A DNA stretch of 64,000 nucleotides from NCBI GenBank assembly GCA_965242525.1, contig OZ251459.1, positions 1,609,214-1,673,213 on the forward strand. The letters are read 5' to 3'. The translations under genes and the position numbers were made by a program. A model generated the notes under the pieces. The model did not search any database, was not told where the DNA came from, and was given only the letters and a program-made list of their open reading frames with translations. The DNA comes from an uncultured Candidatus Binatia bacterium. Lineage in GTDB: Bacteria; Desulfobacterota; Binatia; UBA9968; JAJDTQ01. How positions within the stretch are numbered: the first letter of the stretch is position 1; each line of letters starts with the position of its first letter. Positions 5,269 through 46,282 of the stretch are shown here, piece after piece.

Positions 5269-7482
5269 TTGAACGCGACGCCGAAGCGAGGGCGCGCTGC
5301 GCCGGAGCGGCGCCGGGCGCGCACGCCCCTGATGCTGCAACTCACCGAGACCGAGTGCGGGGCGGTGTGCCTCGGCATCGTGCTTGCGCACTTCGGGCGC
5401 TGGGTATCCGTCGAGGAGTTGCGGGAAACCTGCTCGGTGGGCCGGGACGGGTGCTCCGCGGCCGACATCTTCCGCGCGGCGCAGCGGTACGGCCTGGAGG
5501 CCCAGGGATGGCGCAGGCAGCCGAAGCACCTCCGCGGCATGCCGTTGCCCATGATCATCTTCTGGGAGTTCAACCATTTCGTGGTGCTGGAAGGCTTCCG
5601 CGGGGACCGGTTCCTGATCAACGACCCGGGCAGCGGCCACCGGACGGTCAGCGCGGAAGAGTTCGACCGGGCGTTCACGGGCGTGACGCTGACGCTCCGA
5701 CCGAAGCCCGAGTTCCGTCCGGGCGGCGTCCGCCCCGGTCTCCTGCACCGGATCCTGCCGTGGCTGCGCGACGTGAAGGAGCCGCTCGCGTTCGCCATGT
5801 GCTGCGGGCTGCTGCTGACCCTGCCCTCCCTCGCCATGCCGTTCCTGGTGGGCCTGTTCGTGGACTTCGTGCTGTCCGGGCGCGAACCGTCCTGGAGCGC
5901 GGCGCTGACCGGGAGCCTCGTGGGGGCCGCGGCCCTGCTCTACCTCCTGACTTGGCTCCGGGAACGCTGCCTCCGGCTGCTCTCCGTGCGCCTCGCCATC
6001 GACCACGGCGCGCGCTTCATGGAGCGGCTGTTCCGGCTTCCCATGGGGTTCTTCACCCACCGGCTGTCCGGCGACCTGACCTCCCGGATACAGCTCCTCG
6101 ACACGGTCTCGAACGTGGCCGCGCACCACCTGGCCGGCATCTCCATCGAGATCGTCACCAGCATGGCGTTCCTTGGGCTCATGCTGGCGTACGACCCGCT
6201 GCTCTGCGCCGTGGTGGTGGGACTGGGCGCGCTCAGCGCGGTGGCCATGCGCGTCCTGGCCCGGGTCCGGGTGGACGAGAACCGCAGGCTCAGGCGCGAG
6301 CAGGGCATGCTGTACGGCATCGGCATGTTCGGGGCCGGCAAGATCGACGCCTTGCAGGCGTCCGCCGCGGAGGACGACTTCTTCTCCCGCTGGACGGGAT
6401 ACCAGGCGCGGGAACTGGCCGCCCGGCAACGGTTCACCGAGCTCGGCCACCTCAACGCGGCCCTGCCCCTGCTGTTCCTGATCGCGGGCAACGCCGCGGT
6501 GCTGGGCATCGGCGGCTGGCGGGTGATGGCGGGCGACCTGACGGTGGGCATGCTGACGGCCTTCTACATGGCGGCGGTGAACTTCCTGCAGCCCATAGGA
6601 CGGTTCATCCAGTTCGCCGACATGTTCCAGATGCTGGAGGCGGACCTGCAGCGCCTCGACGACGTGTTCGACGCGTCCGAGGACCGCACCTTCCATCCGG
6701 CGGCGCCCTCTCCCCAGGGGGAGGAGGGGGAAGTCTCGACGTTGGCCGGGCGGCTGCGTCTGAAAGGCCGGGTCGAGCTGCGCAACGTCACCTTCGGCTA
6801 CCAGAAGAACCGCGAACCCCTGATCGAGGACTTCAACCTGACCATCGAGCCGGGCCAGCGCGTGGCCGTGGTCGGCCCCAGCGGCTCCGGCAAGTCCACG
6901 CTCTCGGCGCTGGTGGCCGGCCTCCAGCAACCGTGGTCCGGGGAGATCCTCATCGACAGGCACCCGCGCAGCGCCATCCCGCGGGAGGTGCTGACCAGTT
7001 CCGTGTCCCTCGTGGACCAGCACATCTTCCTGTTCGGGGGCACCGTGCGCGAGAACCTGACCATGTGGATCCCCGAGGTGCCGGACCAGATCCTGGTGGC
7101 GGCCGCCCAGGACGCGGCCATCCACGCGGAGATCATCTCCCGGCCCCTGGGGTACGACGCGCCGGTGGACGAGGGAGGACGCAACTTCAGCGGCGGCCAG
7201 CGGCAGCGGCTGGAGATCGCCCGGGCCCTGGTCAACAACCCGTCGGTCCTGATCCTGGACGAGGCCACCTGCTCCCTCGACACCATCACCGAGGTGCGCA
7301 TCGACGACGCCCTGCGGCGCCGGGGATGCACCTGCCTCATCGTGGCCCATCGGCTGAGCACCATCCGTGACTGCGACCTGATCGTGGTCCTCGACCAAGG
7401 GCGCGAGGTGCAGCGCGGCGCCCACGAGGAGTTGATGCGGGACACGGACGGACTGTACCGCCAACTCGTGGAGTCGTCTTGA
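5269..7482 (+). CDS. Peptidase C39 domain / permease / ATPase ABC exporter (NHLM bacteriocin system)
   Basis: The N-terminus LQLTETECGAVCLGIVLAHFGRW carries the C39 catalytic Cys, followed by 6 TM segments and an NBD with GPSGSGKST, FSGGQRQRLEIARAL and ILDEAT. An alternative start is MLQL at about 5332. Confidence 0.9.
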   Translation: MNATPKRGRAAPERRRARTPLMLQLTETECGAVCLGIVLAHFGRWVSVEELRETCSVGRDGCSAADIFRAAQRYGLEAQGWRRQPKHLRGMPLPMIIFWEFNHFVVLEGFRGDRFLINDPGSGHRTVSAEEFDRAFTGVTLTLRPKPEFRPGGVRPGLLHRILPWLRDVKEPLAFAMCCGLLLTLPSLAMPFLVGLFVDFVLSGREPSWSAALTGSLVGAAALLYLLTWLRERCLRLLSVRLAIDHGARFMERLFRLPMGFFTHRLSGDLTSRIQLLDTVSNVAAHHLAGISIEIVTSMAFLGLMLAYDPLLCAVVVGLGALSAVAMRVLARVRVDENRRLRREQGMLYGIGMFGAGKIDALQASAAEDDFFSRWTGYQARELAARQRFTELGHLNAALPLLFLIAGNAAVLGIGGWRVMAGDLTVGMLTAFYMAAVNFLQPIGRFIQFADMFQMLEADLQRLDDVFDASEDRTFHPAAPSPQGEEGEVSTLAGRLRLKGRVELRNVTFGYQKNREPLIEDFNLTIEPGQRVAVVGPSGSGKSTLSALVAGLQQPWSGEILIDRHPRSAIPREVLTSSVSLVDQHIFLFGGTVRENLTMWIPEVPDQILVAAAQDAAIHAEIISRPLGYDAPVDEGGRNFSGGQRQRLEIARALVNNPSVLILDEATCSLDTITEVRIDDALRRRGCTCLIVAHRLSTIRDCDLIVVLDQGREVQRGAHEELMRDTDGLYRQLVESS

Positions 7483-15872: not shown

Positions 15873-16631
15873 TCAGGAGCGGAGGCGCGCCCGGCTTCCG
15901 CGCGCGCCGTACTTGGCCACGAGGGGGAACAGGTCGTAAACGATCCTGGCCTGGGGGCAGTGGCGCCGCACCTCCGGTTCGTAGGCGCTGTTCATGTCCA
16001 TGGCCACCGCCTCGATGGCCTTGCAGCCGTCGGCGCCCAGGCTCTCGAAGAACGGCCGCACGTCTTCGCGGCTGCGCCCCTTGCCCACCCACAACACGCG
16101 CCGGGTCACCGCATCGGTAATCACCGTGGCCAGCTTCTGCACGGTTTGCAGCGCGAACTCGTCCATCACCAGCCGGGTCACCCCGCGCAAGTCCATGGGC
16201 CCCACCGCGCGCTGCAGGTACCCCCTGTCCAAGTCCCTCACCGCGTCCCACCCCAGCCGGTAGTGCTGCGCCACCTGCTTGATGGTCATCACCGTGCACA
16301 AATGCGCCACGTTGTCGGCCAGCCGTTGCGTCACCCGCGCATAGCGGGCCAGCCAGCTCAACCGTTCCAGCTTGGGACCGCACCGCGGACACGCCAGCCG
16401 CCGACGCCGCAGCACCAGGGTCGTGGGCGCGTCGAAGATGGGCAGGTCGCGCACCCGACGCCGCTCGTACCCGTGGACGGCCGCCACTTCCCGGCCGCAG
16501 CCGACGCAGACCCCGGGCCGTCCCGCCACCGGGTCGAGGTCGATCTCGACCATGCCGCGGTTGCGCCTGGCCGCCACCGCTTCGTAGCCTTCCCAGTCTC
16601 CGAGAACTTCGTCGATTCCGATCTTCGCCAA
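15873..16631 (-). mobile_element. ISL3-family transposase gene, 3'-truncated (pseudogene/remnant)
   Basis: A zf-ISL3 region (CVGCG...RDLPIF...RRRRLACPRCG) is followed by a DDE_Tnp_ISL3 start (LVMDEFAL...AVAMDMNSAYEPEVRRHCPQARIVYDLF). The coding region stops after about 250 aa against an expected ~420, and no TIRs were identified. Confidence 0.75.
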
Positions 16632-16718
16632 GCCGTCTCCTCCCGTGGTCCGTGGCCGCCGTCCGACCCTTCCCGGTCTGGCCGCCCCTTGCCAGTCTAG
16701 CGGCCCTTCCGCGGCCCA

Positions 16719-21252: not shown

Positions 21253-21437
21253 GGTTCCGTGAAGGAACGGATACTATGCGAAAGAGGGTGTGGCAAGGAA
21301 TACCCACCTTTCCAGACGCCCGATCCGACGGGAGGGCCTGCACTCCGCCGCGGAGAGGGGGCGGCGCAAGCCGTTGCCATGAGCCGCGTTTGGCGGTACA
21401 GATGTTCCTTGATGACCCCTCCCGGAAAGGACGAGCC

Positions 21438-21653
21438 ATGCCGGACACTGTGCTGATCTTCGGCCACGACCTCTGACCCTATACTTCGAGTGCCCGGAGG
21501 GACTACTCGGACCGAAACGTCCCCGTCGAGTACGTCAACGTGCTGGACGACGAGGACGGCCTGCAGCGCATGCTGGAGCTGAACCCCGGCAGCCGCGAGA
21601 TCCCGGTGGTGGTCGAGGGAGGCAGGGTCACCGTGGGCTTCGGCGGGAGTTGA
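21438..21653 (+). CDS. Glutaredoxin/NrdH-like small redox protein with in-frame TGA at the active-site Cys position (candidate selenoprotein; otherwise pseudogene)
   Basis: Sequence MPDTVLIFGHDL[TGA]PYTSSARRDYSDRNVPVEYVNVLDDEDGLQRMLELNPGSREIPVVVEGGRVTVGFGGS. The TGA replaces the first Cys of a CPYC motif, the frame continues for 58 more codons with Grx-like features, and a possible hairpin CGAGTGCCCGGAGGGACTACTCG lies 9 nt downstream. Confidence 0.45.
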
Positions 21654-21736
21654 ACGGTGTAGCGGCCGAGGTCCTCGGCCCGACCCCCCCTTCCCCGTCG
21701 AACGTCCCCGTCGGACGAACCATTGCGGAGGACGCC

Positions 21737-22699
21737 ATGATCAAGCACGTGGTCCTCGTGAAGCTCAAGGCAGACGCGTCCCGGGAGCAGATCGACCGGA
21801 TGCTGGAAGGCTACGACTCCATGAAGGACGCCATACCGGACCTGCTGGGCTGGTCCATGGGACCCAACCGGCGGCGGGACGGGGAGTTCGACTACGCCAT
21901 GGTGGCGGTGGTGGAGGACGAGGAGAGCCTCCGGCGCTACGTGGAACACCCTCTCCACCGGCAGGTGGCCCGGGATCTCGGGCGGCCCATATTCGAGAAG
22001 CGGGAGATCGCCGACTACGAGTTCGACCCCGAAGCCGAGCTGTGGGAGCCCCAGGTGCAGGAGGTGTGGACCGAGCTCGCGGACATGGTGCGGCCCGAGC
22101 ACACCGCGCTGGTGGTGGTGGACGTGCAGAACGACTTCTGCGCCCCCGGGGGCGCGCGCATGAAGGGCGACCTGAGCTTCGTGGAGGCCATGCGCGAACC
22201 CCTGCGGCAGATGGTGGAAGCGGCCCGGGCCGCGGGGACGCCGGTGGTCTATACCCAGACCTCCAACGACGAGGAGCACGACAACGGACCCATCCTCGCC
22301 CGGCGCGCCCGGGTGGGGCTGGCCAACGCCAAGTACACGGTGCCGGGCACACCGGGTTGGGACGTCTGCGATTTCGTAGCCCCGGCACCGGGGGACGTCA
22401 CCATCAAGAAGTGGCACCACAGCGGCTTCACCAACCCCAAGATGGACGCCGCCCTGGGACGCCTGGGGGTCAAGACCCTGCTGTTCACCGGCGCCGCCAC
22501 CAACGGGTGCGTCGAGGCCACGGTCCGGGACGCTTTCGCACGGGGCTACTACAACGTGGTGCTGGAGGACTGCGTGGCGGCTTACGACGCGGACTTGCAG
22601 CGCTACTCGCTCAAGAACATGGCCACCCACTTCGCCCTGGTCAGCACAAGCCGCGAGGTCCAGCGCGCGTGGGCGGAACGGGGAACGCTGGCGGGATAG
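21737..22699 (+). CDS. Dabb (stress-responsive alpha/beta barrel) domain fused to isochorismatase-family cysteine hydrolase
   Basis: N-terminus MIKHVVLVKLKADASREQIDRMLEGY (Dabb), followed by TALVVVDVQNDFCAPGG with a catalytic Cys in FTGAATNGCVEAT. Confidence 0.75.
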   Translation: MIKHVVLVKLKADASREQIDRMLEGYDSMKDAIPDLLGWSMGPNRRRDGEFDYAMVAVVEDEESLRRYVEHPLHRQVARDLGRPIFEKREIADYEFDPEAELWEPQVQEVWTELADMVRPEHTALVVVDVQNDFCAPGGARMKGDLSFVEAMREPLRQMVEAARAAGTPVVYTQTSNDEEHDNGPILARRARVGLANAKYTVPGTPGWDVCDFVAPAPGDVTIKKWHHSGFTNPKMDAALGRLGVKTLLFTGAATNGCVEATVRDAFARGYYNVVLEDCVAAYDADLQRYSLKNMATHFALVSTSREVQRAWAERGTLAG

Positions 22700-23846: not shown

Positions 23847-24260
23847 CTAGCCTTCGTCGAACCCGCGGCGGAAGCGGCGGCGCCAGTAGGCGTCCAGGGC
23901 CTCGTACAGGCCCGGGTCGGCCTTCCTGTTCTTGACGAACCAGTCCGCCAGGATGTCGATGCTGTGATCCATGTCCAGCACCGGATTGGCGGCGAACAGC
24001 ACCATCCCGGACAGGGCCTTGCGGCTGGCATTCTTCTCCAGCGCGTTGCCCAGCGCCGCCAGGAACACCTCCCGCTCGCTGCCCCGGAGCCCATGGTAGA
24101 GGCTCAGCAGCACCGAAGCGGCGCCGTAGCTCTCCACGTCCCTGGCCGTCTCCGGGTCGATCCCCAAGGCGATGCGGACGATGAGCCTCTCGTAGCCCCT
24201 TATGTCGTAGTAGTCGTACAGACCCGCTGACCCTCTACCGCTTCGGACCGCGCTCGACAC
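23847..24260 (-). CDS. Hypothetical protein
   Basis: The 137-aa ORF has balanced composition and GC3 bias, and the opposite-strand alternative is Arg/Pro/Ala-rich. Confidence 0.4.
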   Translation of the reverse strand: MSSAVRSGRGSAGLYDYYDIRGYERLIVRIALGIDPETARDVESYGAASVLLSLYHGLRGSEREVFLAALGNALEKNASRKALSGMVLFAANPVLDMDHSIDILADWFVKNRKADPGLYEALDAYWRRRFRRGFDEG

Positions 24261-24269
24261 GAACTCCCC

Positions 24270-24640
24270 GTGGGAAAGCGCGTCCTTCGACTTCGCTACG
24301 CTACGCTCAGGACGAACGGGGTTCGTTGTTCCGAGGTTCCCTCGAACGGGAACAGGTTGCGAGAGTTTCCTTTGGAACCTCTGAACAATCGAGACATCCG
24401 GGATGGATTCTCGATTCCCTCACCCTGACGCGCCTATCCCGTTCGTCCTGAGCGTAGCGAAGTCGAAGGACGCTCTCTCCCGATTGTTCAGAGGTTCCCT
24501 TTATCTGTAGGAATGTCGAACGATCAAGACAGGGAGGGTGGATTCCCTCGCCCTGACCCTCCTATCCCGTTCGTCCTGAGCGTAGCGAAGCGAAGTCGAA
24601 GGACGCGCTCTTCCTCTGGAATTGTCCAGAGTTTCTGTTA
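24270..24640. repeat. MITE family 1 copies (TIR GGAACCTCTGAACAATCG ... CGATTGTTCAGAGGTTCC)
   Basis: Read directly; the copies include the GCGTCCTTCGACTTCGCTACGCTCAGGACGAACGG core. Confidence 0.85.
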
Positions 24641-24655
24641 GATAGTAGCATTGAT

Positions 24656-24994
24656 ATGGTGGTTCCACGCATGGAGTACGAGGCGCTGCGCGAGGCCACT
24701 GATGAGGATGTCGGTGACGCCGACCTGGTCCGCCGCATGCTCGACGACCCCGAGGAGGAACTGGCGCCCTTGGAGTTGAGCGAGCGGATCGCCCAGGGCG
24801 AGCACCCGGTTCGGGTCTGGCGTGAGCACCGGGGAATGAAGGCCGGCATCCTCGCCAGACGAGCCGGAGTCGCAGCCTCCTACCTGTCCGACATCGAGCA
24901 CGGGAAGAAACCGGGCTCGGCCAAGACCCTCGCCGCCATCGCCCGAGCGCTGGACGTTGACCTGGACGAAATCGTCCGATCCGACGTCTCCTGA
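24656..24994 (+). CDS. XRE-family helix-turn-helix transcriptional regulator (HigA-like antitoxin fold)
   Basis: Segment VRVWREHRGMKAGILARRAGVAASYLSDIEHGKKPGSAKTLAAIARALDVDLDEI. Confidence 0.75.
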   Translation: MVVPRMEYEALREATDEDVGDADLVRRMLDDPEEELAPLELSERIAQGEHPVRVWREHRGMKAGILARRAGVAASYLSDIEHGKKPGSAKTLAAIARALDVDLDEIVRSDVS

Positions 24995-25600
24995 CTTCCC
25001 GCCTTTCCCGCGCTTTCGCCCGAACGGACAGACGGCCGACACGGTTGAGGCGGTCCATGTAGAGGCCCCATCCTCACAGCCTCGCCGTCATTCCCCACAG
25101 ACGCCCACCCCTCGTCATTTCGGCAAGCGCTTACCCCGTCATTCCCGCGAAAGCGGGAATCCATCCGGTTTCGTCGCTCTCGTTGTACAAACCTCTCCAG
25201 GTCGGATTACCCTTCTCGATCCACTCGATCTTCCTTGCCCGCTTCCATTTCCTGACCGCCTTTCTCTCCGGGTAGCGCTTTCCATGGGTTCAGGAACCTC
25301 GTATCCAACCAACAGGTGCACAGATGGATGGATTCCCGCTTTCGCGGGAATGACGGCATGGGTTTTCACAGGAGGAACCTCTGAACAATCGAGACATCCG
25401 GGATGGATTCCTTCACCCTGACCCCTATATCCGTTCGTCCTGAGCGTAGCGAAGCGGAGTCGAAGGACGCGCTCATGCCCTCTATCCCGATTGTTCAGAG
25501 GCTCCTCCCGTCATTCCCGCGAAAGCATGTCCTCGCGGAAGCGGGGACGGGAATCCATCTGCCTTCGATCTTTGCCACGGGATCGGTTCCCGTCGCTTAC
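24995..25600. repeat. MITE cluster: a family 2 element (~25133-25358), a family 1 element (~25373-25510) and a TIR fragment
   Basis: The family-2 copy here is about 95% identical to the copy at about 29226-29460. Confidence 0.85.
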
Positions 25601-28600
25601 CGCGGCGCCGCCAGCAGCATGGCGTCCAGCAGGCGCTTCTCTTCGCTCACCGGAGGGTACAGAGCGGACAGGGCGTTGGCAAGGCGCAGGAAGTCGGGGC
25701 CGCGCTCGTGTTCCGCCTTCAGCAGGTTGCGCAGGGCCTGGCTGCGGCCCGACGCCTGCAAGAGCATGGCCGCGTGGACCCGGTCCAGCGTGGTGGCGTC
25801 CGGGGCCTGCATCTCCGCGTCGTCCGCGATGAGGACCTTCCCACCGCGGCTTCGGGTTCGCTTCTTCTTGGGGGCGGCCTCCATTTCGGGGAAAAGCACC
25901 TGCTGCACGGTGACCCTCGGGTCGCGCTCCAACCATTCCGCGGCCGTGTCTGCGCCGTCTTCGCCGAAAAGCTGTTTCCCTCGTTCCGTGGCGTTTATCA
26001 GCCGCACCACGCCCTTGTCCGTCTCGATGATCCGCCCCTCCCACTTGGACAGTTCGATGCCCAGAGGCTGGGCCAAGCGGCGCGCCACGTCGAAGACGAG
26101 ACTGTAACCCCTAGGCTTGTCGCGGGGCGCGTCGTCCGCCTCCTCGTGGTCATCGTCCTCCGCAACGTTGTCATCGTCTTCGGAGGCGTCGTCTGCGCCA
26201 GTGCTTTGCAGGGTCCAGAGGAACAGGGCGGTCAGGCGGGTGTCCTCTTCCAGCGCCCCGGCCATGCCGTTGCGCGCCTTCGCCTCCGCGGCCCCGAGGA
26301 CGTTTTCGAGGGCGGTGCGCCCGACCACTTCCCACACCCGTTCCAGGTACTCCGGCAGGCCCACCTCACGCCCCTCCGCGGTCTCCACCTGCCGGTAGCG
26401 GCTGTATATCTCCAGGGCCGGTCCGATGCAGGCAAAGACCAGGTCCGCGCCCCGGACCCCTTCGCCTTGCAACCGTTCCATCCATTCGCCCACGCGGATG
26501 GGCAGTTCGCGCAGCACGTCCGCCCAATCGCCCACCGGCGCGTCGTCGGGGCGGGGACGGCAGACCAGGTGGACGCTGGTGGCCAGGGACGCGGTGTCAC
26601 GCGCATTGAGACGAGAACCCATCTCCGTTGCCACCGGCCACGAGCCGGTGATGGTCCAGCCGCCGCTGATCATCCCGGACAGCAGCGCTTCCCAGCCCTC
26701 GGTGGTCTTGTGGGCGAAGACGACCGATCCGATACCGTCCTGGCGCAGGATGCGCCGCCCTTCGGCAAAAGCCCGAACCATTCCCGATTCGTAGGTCCTT
26801 GCCGTCTTGGTCGAACTGCTGAGCCGATGCGGTCGGTCAACGACGATCTCTTCTTCCTTCGGGGTCAGGTCATGTGAATCGATGGAGTGGCAAAGAGCCA
26901 TCATCTGCTCTGGCAAGGCGCGCTTGAGCCATACGAAGAAGAAATCGGACAAGTGTGCATAGGGGACAGCGTCGTAGTAGGGCGGGTCGGTGAACCAGAC
27001 ACTGGCGGCGGCGTCGGGCAAAGGATAAGCCTTGGCGTCTGCGGGTTGCACTTGGCCAAGGTTGGATTCGGGCCATGAGTCAATAACATTGGCAATCCAG
27101 TCCAGCGCTCCGTCATAACCACCGGTGGATTCCGAAAAGGGATTGCTCTCGCTGTAGTCCCAGACCAGGGGGAGAGCCTGTCGAGAATAGACACCCTCAT
27201 GCTTCTCGCCTGATGTATGCCATCGGCATAGCGAGCATCCTGCATTGGCGGTTCGTGTCAACGCCAGCGCCAGAGGTTGTTTCGCCATGTCGTCGATCGT
27301 TGGGAACCTCTGAACGATCGGGACAGGGGGCGTGAGCGCGTCCTTCGACTTCGCTTCGCTACGCTCAGGACGAACGGAGGACTCCACCTCGCTACGCTCA
27401 GGACGAACGGGAGGCTCCGCTTTGCTACGCTCAGGATAAACGGGGATGGGACGGTCAGGGTGCGGGAATCCATCCTGGATGTCTCGATTGTTCGGGAGTT
27501 TCGTTGATGATTTCGTCAATTCCACCAGCGCCGCCTTCTGCCGCGCGGTGAACAGATCGCCCCATGTCGTCATTCCGTAGATTGGCACGCTGATGCGTCG
27601 AATCTCGTTCAGCGAAATCGGCTCGTCCGGCACAGGACACAACCCTTGCCTCCCGCCCCGCTCCCATTCGTCGAGAATCCCCGCCAGCCGTGCCTGCGCT
27701 TCATACACCGCCGCGTAATCGGCGTCCGTCGGCATCCGATAGTGCCGGCCCGGCTCGTTCTCCTTCAGCGTCACCACCGCGGTCATGCACGCGCCGCCCA
27801 TGCGTCTGCCTGCTTCGTCGAAGATCACGTCCGCGCCGCCGCGCTGCTCGGCAAGTTGCGCCCGCACCCGCTCCGGCGGTAGTACGGCGCCGCAACACAG
27901 GCAGGTCGCCTTGGCCCGCGTCACCGTGCCCGCACGCACGTCCTTGTCGGTCTCCGGCTCGAAAATCTCCAACTCCACACGCGGCGGCTCCTTGGCCGGC
28001 TGCACGACCTTATGGAACCTCTGAACAATCGGGACAGGAGGCATGAGCGCGTCCTTCGTCTCCGCTTCGCTACGCTCAGGACGAACGGGGATAGGCGTGT
28101 CAGCGTGAGGGAATCCATCCCGGATCTCTCGATTGTTCAGATGTTTCTTGTACCGGAGCGCCTGACGGCCCCGGACCTTCTTCCGCTTGCCGCCCTCCCT
28201 CTTGAACACAGCTTTCTTCGCCAACCACAGCGACCGCAGCAGCGGGACTTCCGCCCCGCAGTTCGGGGCCTCGCAGCGCACCGTGCGCGCCCACAGGTAG
28301 GCGATGGGCGTGCTCCCGTCCAGGTCCACCGGATACAGATCGGCCAACTCCCGTTCCGCGGCCTGCCTGACCTCGCCGCCGACCTTGCGCAACTCATCGG
28401 CCAGCCCCGAACCGTGGCGCGGGATGTCTTCCAGCATCACCTTGAGGATCAGGCAGGCCACCGGGTTCAGGTCGCTGGCGAACGCCTCGCAGCCCACCCG
28501 CAGGGCTTCCAACGGAATCGAGCCGCCGCCCGCGAACGGGTCCACCACTAGGGGCGGCTCCGCGCCGTGGGCCGCCCTCACCAGCGCCCGGGCCGTTTCG

Positions 28601-29037
28601 AGCCGGACGCCGTTTGCGGCAAGGTTCCAGTTGGCGAAGTCGGCGATGAACTTGAGCAGGACCCGCCGCAAGCCATCGTCCGGCTCGATGGCCTCGATCC
28701 ACCCTCCCGGCCGTCCGTGCATCCCCAAGAGGATCTGCCGCGTCTCCTTCTTGAAGGCTTCCGGGCAATGCGGGTCACACGGGTCCGGCAGCAGCAGCGC
28801 CATCAGCATCGCCCGGGAGGAAGCCAGCGGCCGCCGCGCCCACCACAGGTGCAGCGTGGAAGGATGCCCGTGCCGGATGGACTTCTCCCGCGCCGCATGC
28901 CGCGAAACCTCGGCAATGGGGAAGTCCACCTCCGCCAGACGCCTGCACTCCCTGGGAATCACAAATCGAATCCTTGTGAGCCTCGGATCAATCCCGGCTT
29001 GAACTCCCTCTCCCTGTGGGAAAGCGCGTCCTTCCAC
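25597..29037 (-). CDS. DUF1156-domain adenine-specific DNA methyltransferase (defence-island type), carrying two in-frame MITE insertions
   Basis: N-terminal hallmark KSIRHGHPSTLHLWWARRP, with methylase motifs VVDPFAGGGSIP and WFTDPPYYDAVPYAHLSDFF. Residues encoded by the MITEs at 28013-28150 and 27298-27500 ([34 protein letters not shown]) keep the reading frame open. Confidence 0.7.
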   Translation of the reverse strand: MEGRAFPQGEGVQAGIDPRLTRIRFVIPRECRRLAEVDFPIAEVSRHAAREKSIRHGHPSTLHLWWARRPLASSRAMLMALLLPDPCDPHCPEAFKKETRQILLGMHGRPGGWIEAIEPDDGLRRVLLKFIADFANWNLAANGVRLETARALVRAAHGAEPPLVVDPFAGGGSIPLEALRVGCEAFASDLNPVACLILKVMLEDIPRHGSGLADELRKVGGEVRQAAERELADLYPVDLDGSTPIAYLWARTVRCEAPNCGAEVPLLRSLWLAKKAVFKREGGKRKKVRGRQALRYKKHLNNREIRDGFPHADTPIPVRPERSEAETKDALMPPVPIVQRFHKVVQPAKEPPRVELEIFEPETDKDVRAGTVTRAKATCLCCGAVLPPERVRAQLAEQRGGADVIFDEAGRRMGGACMTAVVTLKENEPGRHYRMPTDADYAAVYEAQARLAGILDEWERGGRQGLCPVPDEPISLNEIRRISVPIYGMTTWGDLFTARQKAALVELTKSSTKLPNNRDIQDGFPHPDRPIPVYPERSKAEPPVRPERSEVESSVRPERSEAKSKDALTPPVPIVQRFPTIDDMAKQPLALALTRTANAGCSLCRWHTSGEKHEGVYSRQALPLVWDYSESNPFSESTGGYDGALDWIANVIDSWPESNLGQVQPADAKAYPLPDAAASVWFTDPPYYDAVPYAHLSDFFFVWLKRALPEQMMALCHSIDSHDLTPKEEEIVVDRPHRLSSSTKTARTYESGMVRAFAEGRRILRQDGIGSVVFAHKTTEGWEALLSGMISGGWTITGSWPVATEMGSRLNARDTASLATSVHLVCRPRPDDAPVGDWADVLRELPIRVGEWMERLQGEGVRGADLVFACIGPALEIYSRYRQVETAEGREVGLPEYLERVWEVVGRTALENVLGAAEAKARNGMAGALEEDTRLTALFLWTLQSTGADDASEDDDNVAEDDDHEEADDAPRDKPRGYSLVFDVARRLAQPLGIELSKWEGRIIETDKGVVRLINATERGKQLFGEDGADTAAEWLERDPRVTVQQVLFPEMEAAPKKKRTRSRGGKVLIADDAEMQAPDATTLDRVHAAMLLQASGRSQALRNLLKAEHERGPDFLRLANALSALYPPVSEEKRLLDAMLLAAPR
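27298..27500. repeat. MITE family 1 copy with triplicated central GCTACGCTCAGGACGAACGG, inserted in-frame in the DUF1156 methylase gene
   Basis: The TIRs GGGAACCTCTGAACGATCG and CTCGATTGTTCGGGAGTTTC flank the element. Confidence 0.85.
28013..28150. repeat. MITE family 1 copy inserted in-frame in the DUF1156 methylase gene
   Basis: The TIRs GGAACCTCTGAACAATCGGGACA and CTCGATTGTTCAGATGTTTC flank the element. Confidence 0.85.
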
Positions 29038-29039
29038 TT

Positions 29040-29660
29040 CGCTTCGCTACGCTCAGGACGAACGGGGATAAGGGGTCGGGGTGAGGGAATCCATCCTGGA
29101 TGTCTCGGTTGTTCAGAGGTTCCATAAATCGGCTCTTCCGGCTTTCGTGTGGGTAAGGTAGAAGGGAAAGGGGAGCGAAAAGGATCACACGGTCATTGCT
29201 CCGCGGACGCCCACTCCCGTCATTCCCGCGCACACCCACTTCCGTCATTCCCGCGAAAGCATGTCCTCGCGGAAGCGGGGGCGGGAATCCATCCGGTTTC
29301 GTCGCTCTCGTTGTACAAACCTCTCCAGGTCGGATTACCCTTCTCGATCCACTCGATCTTCCTTGCCCTATTCCATTTCCTGACCGCCTTTCTCTCCGGG
29401 TAGCGTTTTCCGTGGGTTCAGGGACCTCGTATCCAACCAACCGGTGCACAGATGGATGGATTCCCGCTTTCGCGGGAATGACGGAGATGAGGCTTTCGCG
29501 GGAATGACGGCATGGGCTTTCACAGGAGGAACATCTGAACAATCGAGACATCCGGGATGGATTCCTTCACACTGACCCCTATATCCGTTCGTCCTGAGCG
29601 TAGCGAAGCGAAGTCGAAGGACGCGCTCATGCCTCCTGTCCCGATTTTTCAGAGGTTCCA
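29040..29660. repeat. MITE cluster (family 1 at ~29040-29140 and ~29530-29660; family 2 at ~29226-29520)
   Basis: Read directly. Confidence 0.85.
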
Positions 29661-29811
29661 GGAATGACAGACCGACCCCTTTCCCTCCTGCCTTTCCCAC
29701 TCGAAAGCCTGGGGATACCGCTCTGCGGGCGTGCAGACGGCCAACCACAGGAATCCCTGCTCGCTCACGCTGCCGGTCCCGCTCTGCGGGTGGGTGTGCG
29801 GCCGGTTCCGG

Positions 29812-31596
29812 TCAGCGCCGCTGGGTCACGGTGTCCACCAGGGCGGGGGTTCCCTGCTTGACCTGCTCGATGGCGCGGTCCAGGGCGGGCCTCAGGTGGT
29901 CGGCGTTCTCGATGGGGCCTTCGCCGTACCAGCCCATGGAGCGCGCGAGGGCGGCGAAGTCGGGGTCCGGGCCGCACAGGTCCATGCCGATGTGCGCCCG
30001 GGAGGGGTCCGTGCCGCGGTTCCGCGCCATGACGATCTGGTGGTTCCAGTCGTTGTAGTAGGCGCGGTTGTTGTACATGACCACGAGCATGGGGATGCGG
30101 TACTTGGCCGCCATCCACAGGGCGCCGGCGTCGAACATCAGGTCGCCGTCGGGTTGCAGGTCCACCACCAGCCTCCCCTGCCCCTTGTGGGCCAGGGCCA
30201 CCCCCAGGGACAGGCCGATCTGGGTGCCGGTGCCCAGCTCGCGCCCGCCGTGGCGGTAGGGCCGGTCGAAGTTCCACAACCGGCGGGCCCAGTCGTGCAG
30301 CGTGCCGGAGGTCAGCACCCAGTCCTCGTCCCGGATGGCGTCCCACACTTCCAGCGCCAGCCGCGGCACGGTCATGGGAACCGCGTCCCAGCGGTCTTCC
30401 TCGGCCTGCCGGCGCCATTGGGCGCGGACCTCGGCGTGGCGCCGGCCGGTCTCCTCCGTGCGCCGGGCGATCTTCTCGGCCAGGCCCGGAGTCCGGGCGA
30501 TGCGGGCCTTCAGCAGCCGGGTGAGCGCCGGGGCCGCGGTCACCGGGTCCGCGGTCATGCGCTGGTGCGCATAGAAGGGCCGGGCGTAGGTCATGGCCCA
30601 CTTGCTGATCTCCACGTCGGTGTAGCCGATGTCGATCCAGGCGGCGTCCTCGGGCACCATGCTCACCACCGTGCGCGTGGCGATGTCGCGCACGTGGGTG
30701 GGCTTCTCGAAGTCCGCCACGTCCAGCGTCAGCACCGCGTCCGCGTCCTTGTAGCAGCCCTCGCCGTCCATGCTCAGGTTCAGGGGGTGATCGCTCGGGA
30801 AGTTCAGGCGGGAGTCGCAGTCCCACACCCGGGCGCCCAGGGTCTCGGCCAGATCCACCACGTGGTCCCAGCCGTGGGGCGGACGCGCGGCGAAGTCCGC
30901 CACGATGACCGGGCGCTCCGCCCCGGCCAGGGTGTCCGCGGCCTGCTCCAGGGCTGCGGGGTCCGCCATCACCGGGGCCGGCACGCGCGCGGCCTCCTCC
31001 GGCGGCATGGCCACGTCCCGTTCGAGGGGAGCCTCCTGGAGGCCCGCGTCGTAGCACATGTAGATGGGTCCCTGCTTGCCGCTCATCATCACCGAATAGG
31101 CCCGGGCAAAGGCCCCGGGCACCCCGTCGATGGTGGTGGGCTGGGAGTCCCACTTGACGTAGTGGCGGATGGCCTCGCCCTGGACGCTGGCCGAATGGAT
31201 CCAGTCGATGAACGGGCGGCGCTTGGGCTCCTCCATGGGGCCGGTGGCGCCGATGATGAAGACCGGCGCCCGGTCCAGGTAGGCGTAGTAGATGCCCATG
31301 GGCGCGTGCAGCAGCCCCACCAGGTTGTGGACGATGGCGATCATGGGCTTGCCGGTGGCCCGGGCATAGCCGTGGGCCATCTGCACCGCGATCTTCTCGT
31401 GGTTGCACAGCATCATGGGCGGGTCGTCCTCGCCGTAGTTCACCAGCGAGTCGTGGAGGCCCCGGTAGCTGGCCCCGGGGTTGAGGGTGATGTGCTCGAA
31501 CCCATACCGCTTGATCATGTCCACGATGACGTCCGACTGCCACTTGCGGTCGGACTTTTTGATGTCGGGAACTTCCGTCCCTGCCGCCTTGCTCAT
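29812..31596 (-). CDS. Thiamine-pyrophosphate-dependent enzyme (acetolactate synthase / benzoylformate decarboxylase superfamily), copy 1
   Basis: Start MSKAAGTEVPDIKKSDRKWQSDVIVDMIKRYGFEHITLNPGASYRGLHD, a TPP-binding motif region GTGTQIGLSLGVALAHKGQGRLVVDLQPDGDLMF...NNRAYYN, and about 595 aa in length. Confidence 0.8.
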   Translation of the reverse strand: MSKAAGTEVPDIKKSDRKWQSDVIVDMIKRYGFEHITLNPGASYRGLHDSLVNYGEDDPPMMLCNHEKIAVQMAHGYARATGKPMIAIVHNLVGLLHAPMGIYYAYLDRAPVFIIGATGPMEEPKRRPFIDWIHSASVQGEAIRHYVKWDSQPTTIDGVPGAFARAYSVMMSGKQGPIYMCYDAGLQEAPLERDVAMPPEEAARVPAPVMADPAALEQAADTLAGAERPVIVADFAARPPHGWDHVVDLAETLGARVWDCDSRLNFPSDHPLNLSMDGEGCYKDADAVLTLDVADFEKPTHVRDIATRTVVSMVPEDAAWIDIGYTDVEISKWAMTYARPFYAHQRMTADPVTAAPALTRLLKARIARTPGLAEKIARRTEETGRRHAEVRAQWRRQAEEDRWDAVPMTVPRLALEVWDAIRDEDWVLTSGTLHDWARRLWNFDRPYRHGGRELGTGTQIGLSLGVALAHKGQGRLVVDLQPDGDLMFDAGALWMAAKYRIPMLVVMYNNRAYYNDWNHQIVMARNRGTDPSRAHIGMDLCGPDPDFAALARSMGWYGEGPIENADHLRPALDRAIEQVKQGTPALVDTVTQRR

Positions 31597-31649: not shown

Positions 31650-33416
31650 TCAGGCGTTGATGTCCCGGCGCCAGACGATGGGGTCCACCAGCGCGGGCTT
31701 GCCGGCCTTGACCTGCTCGATGGCCCGGCGCAGCGCGGGTCCCACCTCCGCGGGGTCTTCGATGGGGCCTTCGGCGTACCAGCCCATGCCCCTGGCGATG
31801 TGCGCGAAGTCCGGCGGCGGCCCCTCCAGGTCCATGCCGATCCAGGCCCGGGACGGGTCGGTGCCGCGCTGGTGCGCCATGTGGATCTGGTGCGCCCAGT
31901 CGTTGTAGTAGGCCCGGTTGTTGTACATGACCACGAGCATGGGGATGTCGTACTTGACCGGCATCCACAGGGCCCCCAGGTCGAACATCAGGTCCCCGTC
32001 CGGCTGCAAGTCCACCACCAGCCTCCCCTGCCCCTTGTGGGCCAGAGCCACGCCGATGGACATGCCGATCTGGGTGCCGGTGCCGAGTTCCCGGCCCGGA
32101 TGGCGGTAGGGCCGGTCGAAGTTCCAGATCTTCTGCACCCAGTCCTTCAGGGTCCCCGCGGTCAGCACCCAGTCCTCGCCCTCGATCTCCCGCCACACAT
32201 CCCATGCCAGCCGGGACTCGGTCATGGGCCGCCGGTCCCTCTCCGCCTGCGCCTGCTCCTGCCACTTCTCCCACTGGCGGTCGTGCTTCTCCGCCAGGGC
32301 GCGCTTGCGCCCCTCGATGCGCTCCCGCAGCGCCGGGTCGGCTTCGACCAGCGCCCGGCACGCCCGGGTGAGCTCGGGAATGGTGATGGCGGTGTCCCCC
32401 AGGACCCGCAGGTCCCAGTTGTGGTGCTTGTTGTAGTCGGTGGCCCACTTGCTGATCTCCACGTCGGCGAAGCCCGCGTCCACCCACTTGCAGTCCGGCG
32501 CGGTCACCACCGTGATCTCCCGGGTCCGGGTGTTGAGCCGGTGGGAGCCCCGGGTCCAGTCCACCACGTCCAGGGCCATCACCAGGTCCACGCCATCGAA
32601 GGCGTCCGGGTGGAAGCTCATGCTGAGGGGGTGGCGGTTGGGGAAGCCCAGCCGCTTGCAGATGTCGAACACCGACGCTCCCACGGTCTCCGCCAGCTCC
32701 ACCGTGGGACCGAAACCCGTGGGCATGCGCCCGGCGTACTCGGTGAGCAGCAACGGGTTGTCCGCCTGCATCAGCATCTCGGCCGCCCGGGCCACCGCCG
32801 CGGGCTCCGGCGCCATGCGCGACGGCACCTTCACCGCGGAAGCCGGCGGGAGCGCCGCCTCCTCGGTGAGCGGACTCTCCTGCAACGCCGAGTCGTAGCA
32901 CAGGTAGATGGGTCCCTGGGGCTCGCTCATCATGATGGAGTAGGCCCGGGCGAAGGAGTCGGGCACGCCGTGGATGCTGCCGGGCTGGTAGTCCCACTTG
33001 GTGAAGTTGCGCACCGCGTCGCCCTGGGCGAAGGCCGTGTGGATCCAGTCGATGAAGGGGCGCCGGTACTTCTCGTCCATGGGGCCGGTGGCGCCGATGA
33101 CGAACACCGGACAGCGGTCGATGTAGGCGTAGTAGATGCCCATGGGCGCGTGCAGCAGCCCCACCACGTCGTGCACGATGGCGATCATGGGCTTGCCCGA
33201 CGCCTTGGCGTAGCCGTGGGCGATCTGCACCGCGATCTTCTCGTGGTTGCACAGGAGCATCTCCGGGTCGTTCTCGCCGTAGTTCACCAGCGAGTCGTGG
33301 AGGCCCCGGTAGCTGGCCCCCGGGTTCAGGGCCACGTAGGGGATGTCGTAGAGCCGGATGAGGTCCACGATCACGTCCGACTGCCAGCGCTGTTCCGATT
33401 TCCTGATTTCCGACAT
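31650..33416 (-). CDS. TPP-dependent enzyme, tandem paralog (copy 2, ~75% identical to copy 1)
   Basis: Sequence MSEIRKSEQRWQSDVIVDLIRLYDIPYVALNPGASYRGLHD...GTGTQIGMSIGVALAHKGQGRLVVDLQPDGDLMF. Confidence 0.8.
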   Translation of the reverse strand: MSEIRKSEQRWQSDVIVDLIRLYDIPYVALNPGASYRGLHDSLVNYGENDPEMLLCNHEKIAVQIAHGYAKASGKPMIAIVHDVVGLLHAPMGIYYAYIDRCPVFVIGATGPMDEKYRRPFIDWIHTAFAQGDAVRNFTKWDYQPGSIHGVPDSFARAYSIMMSEPQGPIYLCYDSALQESPLTEEAALPPASAVKVPSRMAPEPAAVARAAEMLMQADNPLLLTEYAGRMPTGFGPTVELAETVGASVFDICKRLGFPNRHPLSMSFHPDAFDGVDLVMALDVVDWTRGSHRLNTRTREITVVTAPDCKWVDAGFADVEISKWATDYNKHHNWDLRVLGDTAITIPELTRACRALVEADPALRERIEGRKRALAEKHDRQWEKWQEQAQAERDRRPMTESRLAWDVWREIEGEDWVLTAGTLKDWVQKIWNFDRPYRHPGRELGTGTQIGMSIGVALAHKGQGRLVVDLQPDGDLMFDLGALWMPVKYDIPMLVVMYNNRAYYNDWAHQIHMAHQRGTDPSRAWIGMDLEGPPPDFAHIARGMGWYAEGPIEDPAEVGPALRRAIEQVKAGKPALVDPIVWRRDINA

Positions 33417-33480
33417 GGGAGCCTTTCCTGGTTGGACGAAACGGGTCTCACACACATGGAACCGCGGACGCGGCGGGGCT

Positions 33481-39599: not shown

Positions 39600-39948
39600 G
39601 GAGAGAACCCTCTGTACAGGAATACCCGCACGGCCTTCCGGGCGCCCGAAACAAGTCGGATACCACAAAGAGGACCGAGTTTCAGTAGCTGACGCGCTCT
39701 TGTCAAGGAAACGCTGCGCGGTCGTCGTCCCGACCGCCGCGCGGATCTCCCGAACGCTCTGAGGCGGGCTCGGCTCGTTCCGCCGACTTCGGCCCACGAG
39801 TCTAGCAACCTATGGACGCTTCCGCTACGCCCGCCGGGACCCCCGGGCCGCGGGGGCGTTCCCGGACCGCGGTTGCGGGGGCCGAGGGTCCGGGGGGTCC
39901 GGGCGCACCCGGTTCCGAAACCGCCGCGGGTTCGGTATAGAAAGGGGC

Positions 39949-46147: not shown

Positions 46148-46282
46148 CATGGCGAACGGAGACGGTTCTTCCGAGTTTCCTCCACCGGGAAGCGACCCGA
46201 GGGCGGGCGGCTCGTCCGCGGCGCGGCTCCCTGTCGAGGGGAGCCACTGTCTCCGCGGTCGCAAACCTTCGAGGGATGATCC

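What the first reader, a model, noticed from the sequence alone, without database searches (positions are those of the whole stretch)
21438..21653. Glutaredoxin-like ORF with in-frame TGA exactly at the active-site Cys position: candidate selenoprotein
The sequence reads MPDTVLIFGHDL-TGA-PYTSSARR...IPVVVEGGRVTVGFGGS, an uninterrupted 71-codon Grx/NrdH-like frame in which UGA sits where the first Cys of CPYC would be, giving a U-P-Y-T motif. A possible stem-loop (CGAGU...ACUCG around a GGA/GGG apex) begins about 9 nt downstream, at a SECIS-like position. Sec-for-Cys substitution in thioredoxin-fold proteins is an established phenomenon. The alternatives are a nonsense-mutated pseudogene or a sequencing error.
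Basis: partly seen in the sequence, partly recalled or inferred. Interest (0 to 1): 0.6.

Follow-up and report, generated by a model that had tools for sequence, protein, structure and literature searches.

The report
Known glutaredoxin-like double selenoprotein gene

Summary
Window 21438-21653(+) is a glutaredoxin-like frame with an in-frame TGA at codon 13 (21474-21476), giving U-P-Y-T.

The selenoprotein reading is supported. The protein scores 95.9 bits against NCBIfam NF041114, "UXX-star selenoprotein family 1" (cut-off 72). Among 78 distinct homologous loci, codon 13 is TGA in 47 and Cys in 31. Both sides of the TGA show third-position-only variation.

The "stop" TGA at 21651-21653 is followed by ACG GTG TAG. 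All 78 loci have GFGG[ST]-TGA-NNN-GTN-stop (one has ATT for GTN). Adding C-T-V fills the last three model positions (103.7 bits). The true CDS is 21438-21662, 74 codons with Sec13 and Sec72.

Each UGA has its own hairpin. SECIS1 (21485-21511) lies inside the CDS. SECIS2 (21664-21680) lies just past the TAG, has a covarying stem and a G-first loop, and has no T-run.

The family is listed in a 2026 review with two Sec residues, predicted and not experimentally verified. The source is close to a Candidatus Binatia genome. No sel genes or tRNA-Sec lie in the window. The redox or metal-binding function is inferred only. Ordinary in kind; low interest.

The parts
21424..21431 (+). Shine-Dalgarno-like GGAAAGGA, 6 nt before the ATG
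   Evidence: Read directly. GGAAAGGAC is invariant in the five closest loci aligned, which supports 21438 as the start.
21438..21662 (+). Corrected CDS: 74 codons plus TAG stop, MPDTVLIFGHDL-U-PYTSS...GFGGS-U-TV. A member of UXX-star selenoprotein family 1, a glutaredoxin-like double selenoprotein.
   Evidence: NF041114 scores 95.9 bits without the tail (model positions 1-67 of 70). With C-T-V added it scores 103.7 bits and covers 1-70 of 70; the cut-off is 72. Pfam Glutaredoxin matches. GC3 is 0.9 across the frame. 78 homologous loci have the same architecture.
21474..21476 (+). First Sec codon (UGA, residue 13), in the motif U-P-Y-T at the CxxC position
   Evidence: This codon is TGA in 47 and TGC/TGT in 31 of 78 distinct loci. 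The fourth motif position is always Thr.
21485..21511 (+). SECIS1: an 8-bp lower stem (21485-21492 with 21504-21511) around a CCC-GGA-GGG apical mini-hairpin. It lies inside the coding region. The stem starts 8 nt after the UGA and the loop 19 nt after it.
   Evidence: MFE is -10.5 kcal/mol, z = -1.5 against dinucleotide shuffles. P = 0.003 against synonymous-codon resampling. Homologs keep the stem with different arm sequences: CGGGAG/CUCCCG, CGGGCG/UGCCCG, GCGAGCG/CGCUCGC. Support is moderate. Global MFE tests are weak.
21651..21653 (+). Second Sec codon (UGA, residue 72).
   Evidence: It is followed in frame by ACG GTG TAG. TGA-NNN-GTN-stop follows GFGG[ST] in 78 of 78 loci, with one ATT in place of GTN. 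All four Val codons and all three stop codons are used. More distant homologs have Cys here with the tail translated: P0061 ...GTCGV, P0154 ...YCAV, P0178 ...YCGI.
21660..21662 (+). True stop codon, TAG
   Evidence: This position is TAG in 41, TAA in 20 and TGA in 17 of the homologs.
21664..21680 (+). SECIS2: GGCCGAG-GUC-CUCGGCC, a 7-bp hairpin in the 3' untranslated region. The stem starts 10 nt after the second UGA and the loop 17 nt after it.
   Evidence: MFE is -12.6 kcal/mol, z = -3.3. An equivalent hairpin is found in 77 of 77 loci. The loop starts with G in 73 of them (GGC, GGUC, GGU, GUU, GUC). The UGA-to-loop distance is 15-22 nt. The mean hairpin score is 18.75 against 11.5 +/- 0.44 in shuffles. 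Only 1 of 77 has a T-run after the stem. Covariation: 7 of 7 pairs change on both sides; the score is 0.36 against 0.18 shuffled (0 of 500 shuffles reach it) and at most 0.13 when the partners are slid.
21737..22699 (+). Context only: the same-strand downstream gene, a Dabb (stress-responsive A/B barrel) plus isochorismatase-family hydrolase fusion
   Evidence: Pfam PF07876 and PF00857; weak RutB/BiuH-like NCBIfam matches. The same neighbour is found in the close relatives L001-L008. It is absent from the closest relative, L013, and from most of the family.

Best explanation
Window 21438-21662(+) encodes a 74-residue glutaredoxin-fold protein of the curated family "UXX-star selenoprotein family 1" (NCBIfam NF041114). 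It contains two selenocysteines.

**Shown or strongly supported**
- Both UGA codons (21474 and 21651) are translated.
- Each UGA is followed at the usual bacterial distance by its own hairpin with a G-first apical loop. SECIS1 lies within the coding sequence. SECIS2 lies immediately after the true TAG stop, because only two codons follow Sec72.

**Inferred from established knowledge of bacterial Sec decoding**
- SelB carrying Sec-tRNA(Sec) binds each hairpin and delivers Sec to the UGA.

**Inferred from the fold**
- The protein is a minimal beta-alpha-beta-alpha-beta-beta thioredoxin fold with no C-terminal helix.
- Sec13 sits at the N-terminus of helix 1, in a U-x-x-T motif that has no resolving Cys.
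- The chain ends just after the GFGG loop that follows strand 4. In the thioredoxin fold that loop lies on the same edge of the sheet as the active site.
- Sec72, on the short tail, is therefore positioned to act as the partner of residue 13. It would form an intramolecular diselenide, or a selenenylsulfide in the forms with Cys13. That would make the protein a self-contained two-chalcogen redox centre, or possibly a metal(loid)-binding centre.

The identity and the recoding are near certain. The chemistry is a hypothesis, roughly 40-50% likely.
For: **Family match**
- NF041114 is an equivalog-level match: 95.9 bits, rising to 103.7 bits with full model coverage once the U-T-V tail is included; the cut-off is 72.
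[quoted passage not shown] It appears among the families predicted with high confidence.
- The "-star" naming for a C-terminal stop is confirmed by "KCU-star" in the Haft and Gwadz preprint.

**Comparative evidence from 78 distinct loci**
- Codon 13 is TGA in 47 loci and Cys in 31.
- The C-terminal TGA-NNN-GTN-stop is present in 78 of 78.
- The pattern of variation is that of coding sequence on both sides of the first TGA.
- Cys/Cys homologs with a translated C-x-V tail exist.

**SECIS elements**
- SECIS2 is present in 77 of 77 loci, with covariation and no T-run.
- SECIS1 in the window beats synonymous resampling at P = 0.003.
- SECIS2 has almost the same geometry as the SaoC 3' SECIS quoted: UGA, 10 nt, a 7-bp stem and a GGU loop.

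**No global recoding of TGA**
- TGA is the ordinary stop of 15 of 24 window ORFs.

**Fold**
- The AF2 model of a Cys homolog has pLDDT 86.7, reads b1-a1-b2-a2-b3-b4 and ends right after strand 4.
- The best PDB matches are glutaredoxins, including C. oremlandii cGrx1, BC3987 and NrdH, with TM 0.75-0.81.
Against: - No selA, selB, selD or tRNA-Sec is found in the 64-kb window. Sec-decoding capacity of this genome is therefore inferred from the family, not shown.
- SECIS1 is not significant by global folding-energy tests. The z-score is -0.5 to -1.5 against dinucleotide shuffles. The mean z is -0.36 against synonymous resampling, and this does not differ between Sec and Cys forms.
- There is no Rfam match, at the gathering or the E-value threshold.
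- No member of the family has been verified experimentally.
- The proximity of Sec13 and Sec72 could not be modelled.
- The gene neighbourhood is not conserved across the family and gives no functional pointer.
Confidence: 0.9

Rival explanations
1. Single selenoprotein. Only the UGA at codon 13 encodes Sec. The TGA at 21651 is the real stop. The hairpin at 21664-21680 is a transcription terminator or a stabilising stem.
For: Gene callers end nearly all database homologs at GFGG[ST]. A G+C-rich hairpin right after a gene is what a terminator looks like.
Against: TGA-NNN-GTN-stop is conserved in 78 of 78 loci. All four synonymous Val codons and all three stop codons are used, which is a signature of coding sequence. 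The last three positions of the family model are filled only when the tail is translated, adding 7.8 bits. Cys-tail homologs exist. Only 1 of 77 hairpins is followed by a T-run, and the terminator scan finds nothing here. The loop and the spacing fit a SECIS. The review lists two Sec residues for this family.
Confidence: 0.05
2. Nonsense-mutated pseudogene of a Cys-type glutaredoxin-like gene, or a sequencing or assembly error at 21476.
For: The close relatives L001, L003 and L014-L017 have TGT or TGC at this codon, one base away from TGA.
Against: The same TGA is found in 47 independent loci from several phyla. These include the closest relative, L013, at 86% amino-acid identity. GC3 is 0.90 downstream of the TGA. 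Third-position-only variation is seen on both sides. The downstream hairpin is retained.
Confidence: 0.02
3. TGA is reassigned in this organism, to Trp or Gly as in genetic codes 4 or 25, so both positions carry an ordinary amino acid.
For: Some metagenome gene calls for homologs carry W at both positions (P0005, P0068, P0081, P0095).
Against: TGA terminates 15 of 24 well-supported ORFs in the window. These include ORFs that match their family models to the end. In homologs the two positions alternate with Cys, not with Trp or Gly codons. The genome is 68% G+C, unlike lineages known to use code 4 or 25 (the comparison rests on general knowledge).
Confidence: 0.01
4. Same gene and same recoding, but a different chemistry. 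The two selenols do not cycle as a redox pair. They chelate a soft metal or metalloid (Hg, As, Cu, Se) or carry a persulfide- or selenide-type cargo, so the protein is a chaperone or carrier.
For: [quoted passage not shown] In the window the gene is divergently adjacent to an RND efflux pump with weak CusA/CzcA-type similarity. The related fusion family HUGP/GUXX-star exists.
Against: The RND neighbour is not conserved. Most loci sit between rsmI and amgK/murU-like genes, and close relatives sit next to an ABC transporter. The fold and the [U/C]-x-x-T motif are those of thiol-disulfide oxidoreductases. No direct test was possible.
Confidence: 0.3

Closest known systems
UXX-star selenoprotein family 1 (NCBIfam NF041114). 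Also called 'Distant Grx-like protein 1' in Zhang-lab selenoproteome inventories, review PMC13188914.
   Same: Equivalog-level HMM match over the whole model. U-x-x-T at the active site. C-terminal U-x-x-stop. About 74 residues. Two Sec residues. Found mostly in Candidatus Binatia and 'Deltaproteobacteria' MAGs.
   Different: Nothing of substance; this is a member. The window copy is a double-Sec form (U13 and U72), whereas 31 of 78 relatives have Cys13.
Selenoprotein glutaredoxin of Clostridium oremlandii (cGrx1; PDB 7c10/7c12) and other Sec-containing Grx (UxxC)
   Same: Glutaredoxin fold, with TM 0.78-0.79 to the model of a homolog. Sec at the first position of the active-site motif.
   Different: Those proteins keep a resolving Cys (UxxC), have one Sec, and keep a SECIS inside the CDS only. 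Here the fourth motif position is invariably Thr, the chain ends right after strand 4, and a second Sec sits on a C-terminal tail.
C-terminal Sec proteins with a SECIS beyond the stop codon: SaoC (CU-stop) and KCU-star (NF033934), from the Haft and Gwadz preprint 10.1101/2022.07.06.499078. By analogy, also the GCUG tail of animal thioredoxin reductase.
   Same: Sec lies within the last few residues, so the SECIS hairpin must lie after the stop. The quoted SaoC element (UGA, 10 nt, a 7-bp stem, a GGU loop) has almost the geometry of SECIS2 here (UGA, 10 nt, a 7-bp stem, a GUC loop). A Sec on a flexible C-terminal tail serving a redox centre is the principle of thioredoxin reductase (general knowledge).
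   Different: The protein families are unrelated. Here the tail Sec is combined with a second Sec in a Grx active site on the same 74-residue chain.
NrdH-redoxin, mycoredoxin and YruB-type glutaredoxin-like proteins
   Same: Small proteins of about 75 residues with a Grx-like fold. Weak HMM similarity (TIGR02194, TIGR02200, TIGR02196 at E = 1e-3 to 1e-6). NrdH structure 1h75 aligns at TM 0.75.
   Different: Scores are far below their cut-offs (18-28 bits against 86-90). There is no CxxC and no NrdH signature. Those families have no C-terminal Sec or Cys tail.

Membership tests
[quoted passage not shown] | Score at or above the curated equivalog cut-off of the family HMM, over its full length | tested here: met
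   95.9 bits (positions 1-67 of 70) without the tail. 103.7 bits (1-70 of 70) with C-T-V. The cut-off is 72. Sec was entered as Cys because the tool rejects U.
[quoted passage not shown] | C-terminal Sec followed by two residues and a stop (U-x-x-star) | tested here: met
   TGA ACG GTG TAG at 21651-21662. The same pattern is found in 78 of 78 homologous loci.
[quoted passage not shown] | Sec or Cys in a [U/C]-x-x-T motif at the glutaredoxin active-site position | tested here: met
   U-P-Y-T at residues 13-16. In the family this position is U in 47 and C in 31 loci, and Thr is invariant.
[quoted passage not shown] | Glutaredoxin or thioredoxin fold | tested here: met
   PF00462 at E = 2.5e-7, above the gathering score. 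An AF2 model of the Cys homolog P0006 (68% identical) has pLDDT 86.7, and its top PDB matches are glutaredoxins at TM 0.77-0.81. The window protein itself could not be modelled.
Bacterial selenoprotein gene (general) | SECIS hairpin at the right distance downstream of each UGA, with a G in the apical loop | tested here: met
   SECIS2 has strong support: present in 77 of 77 loci, with covariation, a G-first loop in 73 and a UGA-to-loop distance of 15-22 nt. SECIS1 is present in the window with a GGA loop 19 nt after the UGA and P = 0.003 against synonymous resampling. It has only moderate family-wide support, and the global MFE tests are not significant.
Bacterial selenoprotein gene (general) | Cys-containing homologs aligned with the UGA (Sec/Cys pair), with conservation continuing past the UGA | tested here: met
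   Position 13: 31 Cys forms. Position 72: Cys-tail homologs P0061, P0154 and P0178. The pattern of variation is that of coding sequence on both sides.
Bacterial selenoprotein gene (general) | Sec-decoding machinery (selA, selB, selC/tRNA-Sec, selD) in the same genome | not testable with these tools
   None is found in the window: no tRNA and 20 large ORFs scanned. The rest of the genome is not available.
Classical dithiol glutaredoxin (CPYC) / NrdH-redoxin | A C-x-x-C active site with a resolving Cys. Family HMM scores above cut-off. | tested here: not met
   The fourth motif position is Thr in all 78 loci. GRX_bact scores 23 bits against 90. NrdH scores 18 against 86. Mycoredoxin scores 27 against 90. 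The model lacks the C-terminal helix.
Pseudogene (nonsense-disrupted) | A stop not shared by orthologs, with relaxed constraint downstream of it | tested here: not met
   The TGA is shared by 47 loci. Downstream entropy at codon positions 1/2/3 is 0.56/0.40/1.23. GC3 is 0.90.

The most novel reading that the evidence does not exclude
The residue the family is built around may be the C-terminal Sec72. It is invariant in 78 of 78 loci. The "active-site" position 13 switches freely between Sec (47) and Cys (31). On this reading the protein is a helix-less mini-glutaredoxin. Its tail Sec and residue 13 would form an intramolecular diselenide or selenenylsulfide. That centre would have a very low-potential redox or metal(loid)-handling chemistry not described for any characterised glutaredoxin. 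The family is known only from prediction, so this mechanism has not been tested by anyone.
Probability: 0.35. Interest if true: 0.45.

Novelty: already known. Interest (0 to 1): 0.25.

Why it matters
It matters mainly for annotation. Standard gene callers either miss this gene or truncate it at one of the two UGAs, and some even write Trp. The correct product is 74 residues with two selenocysteines.

It is a clean worked example of a bacterial gene with two separate SECIS elements, one inside the coding sequence and one in the 3' untranslated region. It also shows that this Binatia-like organism very probably decodes Sec.

Biologically the family is uncharacterised. The contrast between an invariant tail Sec and a Sec/Cys-switching active-site residue is a usable starting point for biochemistry. 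None of this changes what is already catalogued.

Tried and rejected
- **Global folding statistics for SECIS1.** The 67-nt segment gives z = +0.39. The 42-nt and 27-nt segments give z = -0.5 and -1.5. MFE against synonymous-codon resampling gives a mean z of -0.36, no different for Cys forms. I replaced this with a geometry-specific stem test.
- **RNAalifold on the MAFFT alignment of the 3' hairpin.** It returned only 3 pairs, because 16-nt and 17-nt palindromes were aligned one column out of register. I replaced it with a per-sequence hairpin search and an explicit pair count.
- **Rfam.** No match at the gathering threshold over the whole window. Only chance-level hits at E up to 10 around the gene.
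- **Sec machinery.** No tRNA in the window or in 45 related loci. No SelA, SelB or SelD among 20 window ORFs.
- **Other in-frame TGA candidates in the window.** The only other hit, at 63331(+), lies antisense to the ORF at 62388-63998(-). It is a shared-third-position artefact.
- **Structure of the window protein with Cys for Sec.** I modelled a Cys homolog without the tail instead. The tool gives no coordinates, so the distance between residues 13 and 72 could not be measured.
- **PDB sequence search.** Only marginal glutaredoxin 2 hits, at E of about 0.02.
- **Source contig lookup.** An exact-protein lookup with the neighbouring gene's product found nothing on record.
- **Literature.** Haft and Tolstoy 2025 (PMC12013261), the paper that treats the UXX-star families, is not held. 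The GOS paper cited for family 1 lists only a generic "Grx-like UxxC" family. Nothing was found on Sec use in Binatia.
- **Gene-neighbourhood clustering across 78 loci.** It found only lineage-specific housekeeping neighbours (rsmI, amgK/murU-like) and no functional partner.

Full report
**1. The observation**

The internal TGA is at 21474-21476.

- With Cys at that position the protein matches Pfam Glutaredoxin. PF00462 gives E = 2.5e-7 and 31.3 bits against a gathering score of 22.9.
- The window is 68% G+C and its genes have GC3 near 0.9. In this frame GC3 is 0.92 for the 12 codons before the TGA and 0.90 for the 58 codons after it. Both halves therefore look translated in one frame.
- A Shine-Dalgarno-like GGAAAGGA lies 6 nt before the ATG. 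It is invariant in the closest relatives.

**2. What it is**

An NCBIfam scan gives an equivalog-level match to NF041114, "UXX-star selenoprotein family 1". The score is 95.9 bits against a cut-off of 72, but it covers only model positions 1-67 of 70.

The name is the clue.
- In Haft's nomenclature "-star" means the stop codon, as in "KCU-star".
[quoted passage not shown] It appears among the families predicted with high confidence.

Appending C-T-V to the query fills model positions 68-70 and raises the score to 103.7 bits. The true CDS is therefore 21438-21662. It has 74 codons, with Sec13 in U-P-Y-T and Sec72 in the tail GFGGS-U-T-V-stop.

**3. Comparative evidence**

A protein search found 53 close homologs. 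All were called as 68-73-residue Cys forms ending at GFGG[ST], or as 41-44-residue fragments starting after the first TGA.

A scan of one genome per species found 360 relatives, of which 80 loci were fetched. Most come from Candidatus Binatia, "Deltaproteobacteria" and Syntrophobacterales MAGs. Others come from Acidobacteriota, anammox Planctomycetota, Methylomirabilis and Chloroflexota.

Reading the DNA of 78 distinct loci shows the following.

| Feature | Result |
|---|---|
| Codon 13 | TGA in 47, TGC in 23, TGT in 8 |
| Fourth motif residue | always Thr |
| After GFGG[ST] | TGA-NNN-GTN-stop in 78 of 78 (one ATT in place of GTN) |
| Residue after the tail Sec | varies: E, A, S, G, T |
| Val codon in the tail | GTG 27, GTC 25, GTT 20, GTA 5 |
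| Final stop | TAG 41, TAA 20, TGA 17 |

This is the signature of translated sequence, not of a 3' untranslated region.

Among the 47 Sec13 forms, per-position entropy at codon positions 1/2/3 is 0.42/0.26/1.38 for the eight codons upstream of the TGA. It is 0.56/0.40/1.23 for the 58 codons downstream. Purifying selection therefore acts on both sides in the same frame.

A profile search of 1.8 billion representatives found 937 relatives. They include Cys/Cys forms in which the tail is translated: P0061 GCGYT...GFPGTCGV, P0154 ...YCAV and P0178 ...YCGI. They also include metagenome calls that wrote W for both TGAs, such as P0095 SWPYT...GFGGTWGV. Both Sec positions thus have Cys counterparts.

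TGA is the normal stop of 15 of 24 solid ORFs in the window, so the code is not reassigned.

**4. The two SECIS elements**

SECIS2 is well supported.
- In the window it reads UGA, 10 nt, GGCCGAG-GUC-CUCGGCC (21664-21680). Its MFE is -12.6 kcal/mol and z = -3.3.
- A hairpin in the same place is found in 77 of 77 loci.
- Stems are 4-10 bp and fall into 21 distinct inner-arm types.
- Loops are GGC (31), GGUC (21), GGU (10), GUU (4) and GUC (3).
- The UGA-to-loop distance is 15-22 nt, mostly 16-18.
- The mean hairpin score is 18.75, against 11.5 +/- 0.44 in shuffles.
- Only 1 of 77 has a T-run after the stem, and the terminator scan finds nothing.
- An explicit pair count on the MAFFT alignment gives 82% of cells paired against 71% in shuffles (0 of 500 reach it). 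All 7 pairs change on both sides. The covariation score is 0.36, against 0.18 shuffled and at most 0.13 when the partners are slid.
- The geometry matches the 3' SECIS that Haft and Gwadz describe for the C-terminal Sec of SaoC: UGA, 10 nt, a 7-bp stem and a GGU loop.

SECIS1 is supported less strongly.
UUCGAGUG (21485-21492) pairs with UACUCGGA (21504-21511) around CCC-GGA-GGG. The loop starts 19 nt after the UGA.
- Only 0.3% of synonymous-codon resamplings of the same peptide give as good a stem in that geometry.
- Sec forms average a stem score of 13.7 against 8.4 in controls. Cys forms average 10.5 against 7.1.
- The stem is kept with different arms, partly through amino-acid changes: CGAGUG/UACUCG, CGGGAG/CUCCCG, CGGGCG/UGCCCG and GCGAGCG/CGCUCGC.
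- Global MFE tests are not significant.
- Many Cys forms still carry the stem. That is consistent with recent Sec-to-Cys switches, but it weakens the contrast between the two groups.

**5. Source and context**

Window 15.7-24.3 kb is 82-94% identical in nucleotide sequence to L013 over the aligned blocks. L013 is OZ241979.1, a Candidatus Binatia chromosome, and it also has U-P-Y-T.

Neighbours in the window:
- Upstream and divergent: an RND efflux adaptor and permease, then an ISL3 transposase fragment.
- Downstream on the same strand: a Dabb plus isochorismatase-family hydrolase, then a CmcJ/NvfI-family oxidoreductase.

The downstream pair recurs in the close clade, but L013 lacks the hydrolase gene. 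In 43-46 of 78 loci the gene instead lies between rsmI and amgK/murU-like genes. There is therefore no family-wide functional neighbourhood.

No tRNA and no SelA, SelB or SelD lie in the window.

**6. How it most likely works**

Recoding (near certain). Two independent SelB-dependent UGA-to-Sec events occur, each driven by its own hairpin. The involvement of SelB is inferred from the established bacterial mechanism.

Chemistry (hypothesis).
- The AF2 model of the Cys homolog P0006 has pLDDT 86.7. It is a minimal b1-a1-b2-a2-b3-b4 fold that ends right after strand 4, with no C-terminal helix.
- Its best structural matches are glutaredoxins, BC3987 and NrdH, at TM 0.75-0.81.
- In the thioredoxin fold, strand 4 runs in the same direction as strand 1. 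The loop after strand 4 (here GFGG) therefore lies beside the active site at the start of helix 1. This is established fold topology, so the step is an inference.
- Residue 13 has no resolving Cys (U-x-x-T). The invariant Sec72 sits two residues beyond that loop.
- I therefore propose an intramolecular Sec13-Sec72 diselenide, or a Cys13-Sec72 selenenylsulfide in the Cys forms, as the working centre. I put this at roughly 40-50%.
- The main rival is chelation of a soft metal or metalloid by the two selenols, as the review suggests.

**7. Comparison and verdict**

This is a member of a known, curated but biochemically uncharacterised selenoprotein family. It is not a classical CPYC glutaredoxin or an NrdH: the motif and the HMM cut-offs are not met. 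It is not a pseudogene.

It missed the second and more conserved Sec, and the corrected CDS ends at 21662.

- Novelty: already known.
- Interest: low (0.25).
- Worth noting: the invariance of the tail Sec against the Sec/Cys toggling of the "active-site" residue.

Noticed in passing
window 24300-29600: A stretch of lower G+C (0.57-0.69 against about 0.70). It lies between the 137-aa ORF at 23850-24260(-) and the thiamine-pyrophosphate enzyme genes at 29765-31543(-) and 31650-33455(-). It holds a 1146-aa ORF at 25600-29037(-) with an N-terminal DUF1156 domain, which looks methylase-like. The relatives L001-L008 go from the small ORF to the TPP genes without an insert of this size. It is possibly a mobile or defence island.
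   Followed up: partly
window 15876-16718 (-): An ISL3-family transposase fragment, matching model positions 10-221 of 370. It abuts the end of the RND permease gene.
   Followed up: no
L003-L008 about 6330-7500; L013 6264-6281; window 21681-21736: The spot just downstream of the selenoprotein's 3' hairpin is variable. L003-L008 carry AAA_15/AAA_21 ATPase genes there, intact or fragmented, often with a DUF4276 gene (an OLD/Gabija-like pair?). L013 lacks the Dabb/isochorismatase gene altogether. The window has neither insertion.
   Followed up: partly
P0005, P0065, P0068, P0079, P0081, P0095 (database proteins): Public metagenome gene calls for members of this family carry Trp at both Sec positions. 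In P0065 and P0079 the call also runs on past the true stop. TGA was evidently translated as W by the caller.
   Followed up: no
78 homologous loci (L001-L092): The C-terminal Sec is never replaced by Cys within family 1 (78 of 78 TGA). Position 13 is Sec in 47 and Cys in 31, and both states occur inside the closest clade at 75-86% identity. This implies repeated switches.
   Followed up: partly
L001, L014, L016, L022 and others, about 25-60 nt after the 3' hairpin: A conserved AAATTGACTTGCG...GTCATCGGATATTCTC block lies between the hairpin and the Dabb/isochorismatase gene. It looks like a -35/-10 promoter pair for the downstream gene. It is absent from the window and from L013.
   Followed up: no
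window 39763-42234 (+), 44888-45805 (+), 46280-48601 (+): Two xanthine-dehydrogenase/CO-dehydrogenase-family molybdoenzyme large subunits and an FAD-binding subunit. All score below the equivalog cut-offs, so the substrate is unknown.
   Followed up: no
window 63331 (+): An apparent in-frame TGA with high GC3 on both sides. It lies antisense to the ORF at 62388-63998(-) and shares its third codon positions. I judge it an artefact.
   Followed up: yes
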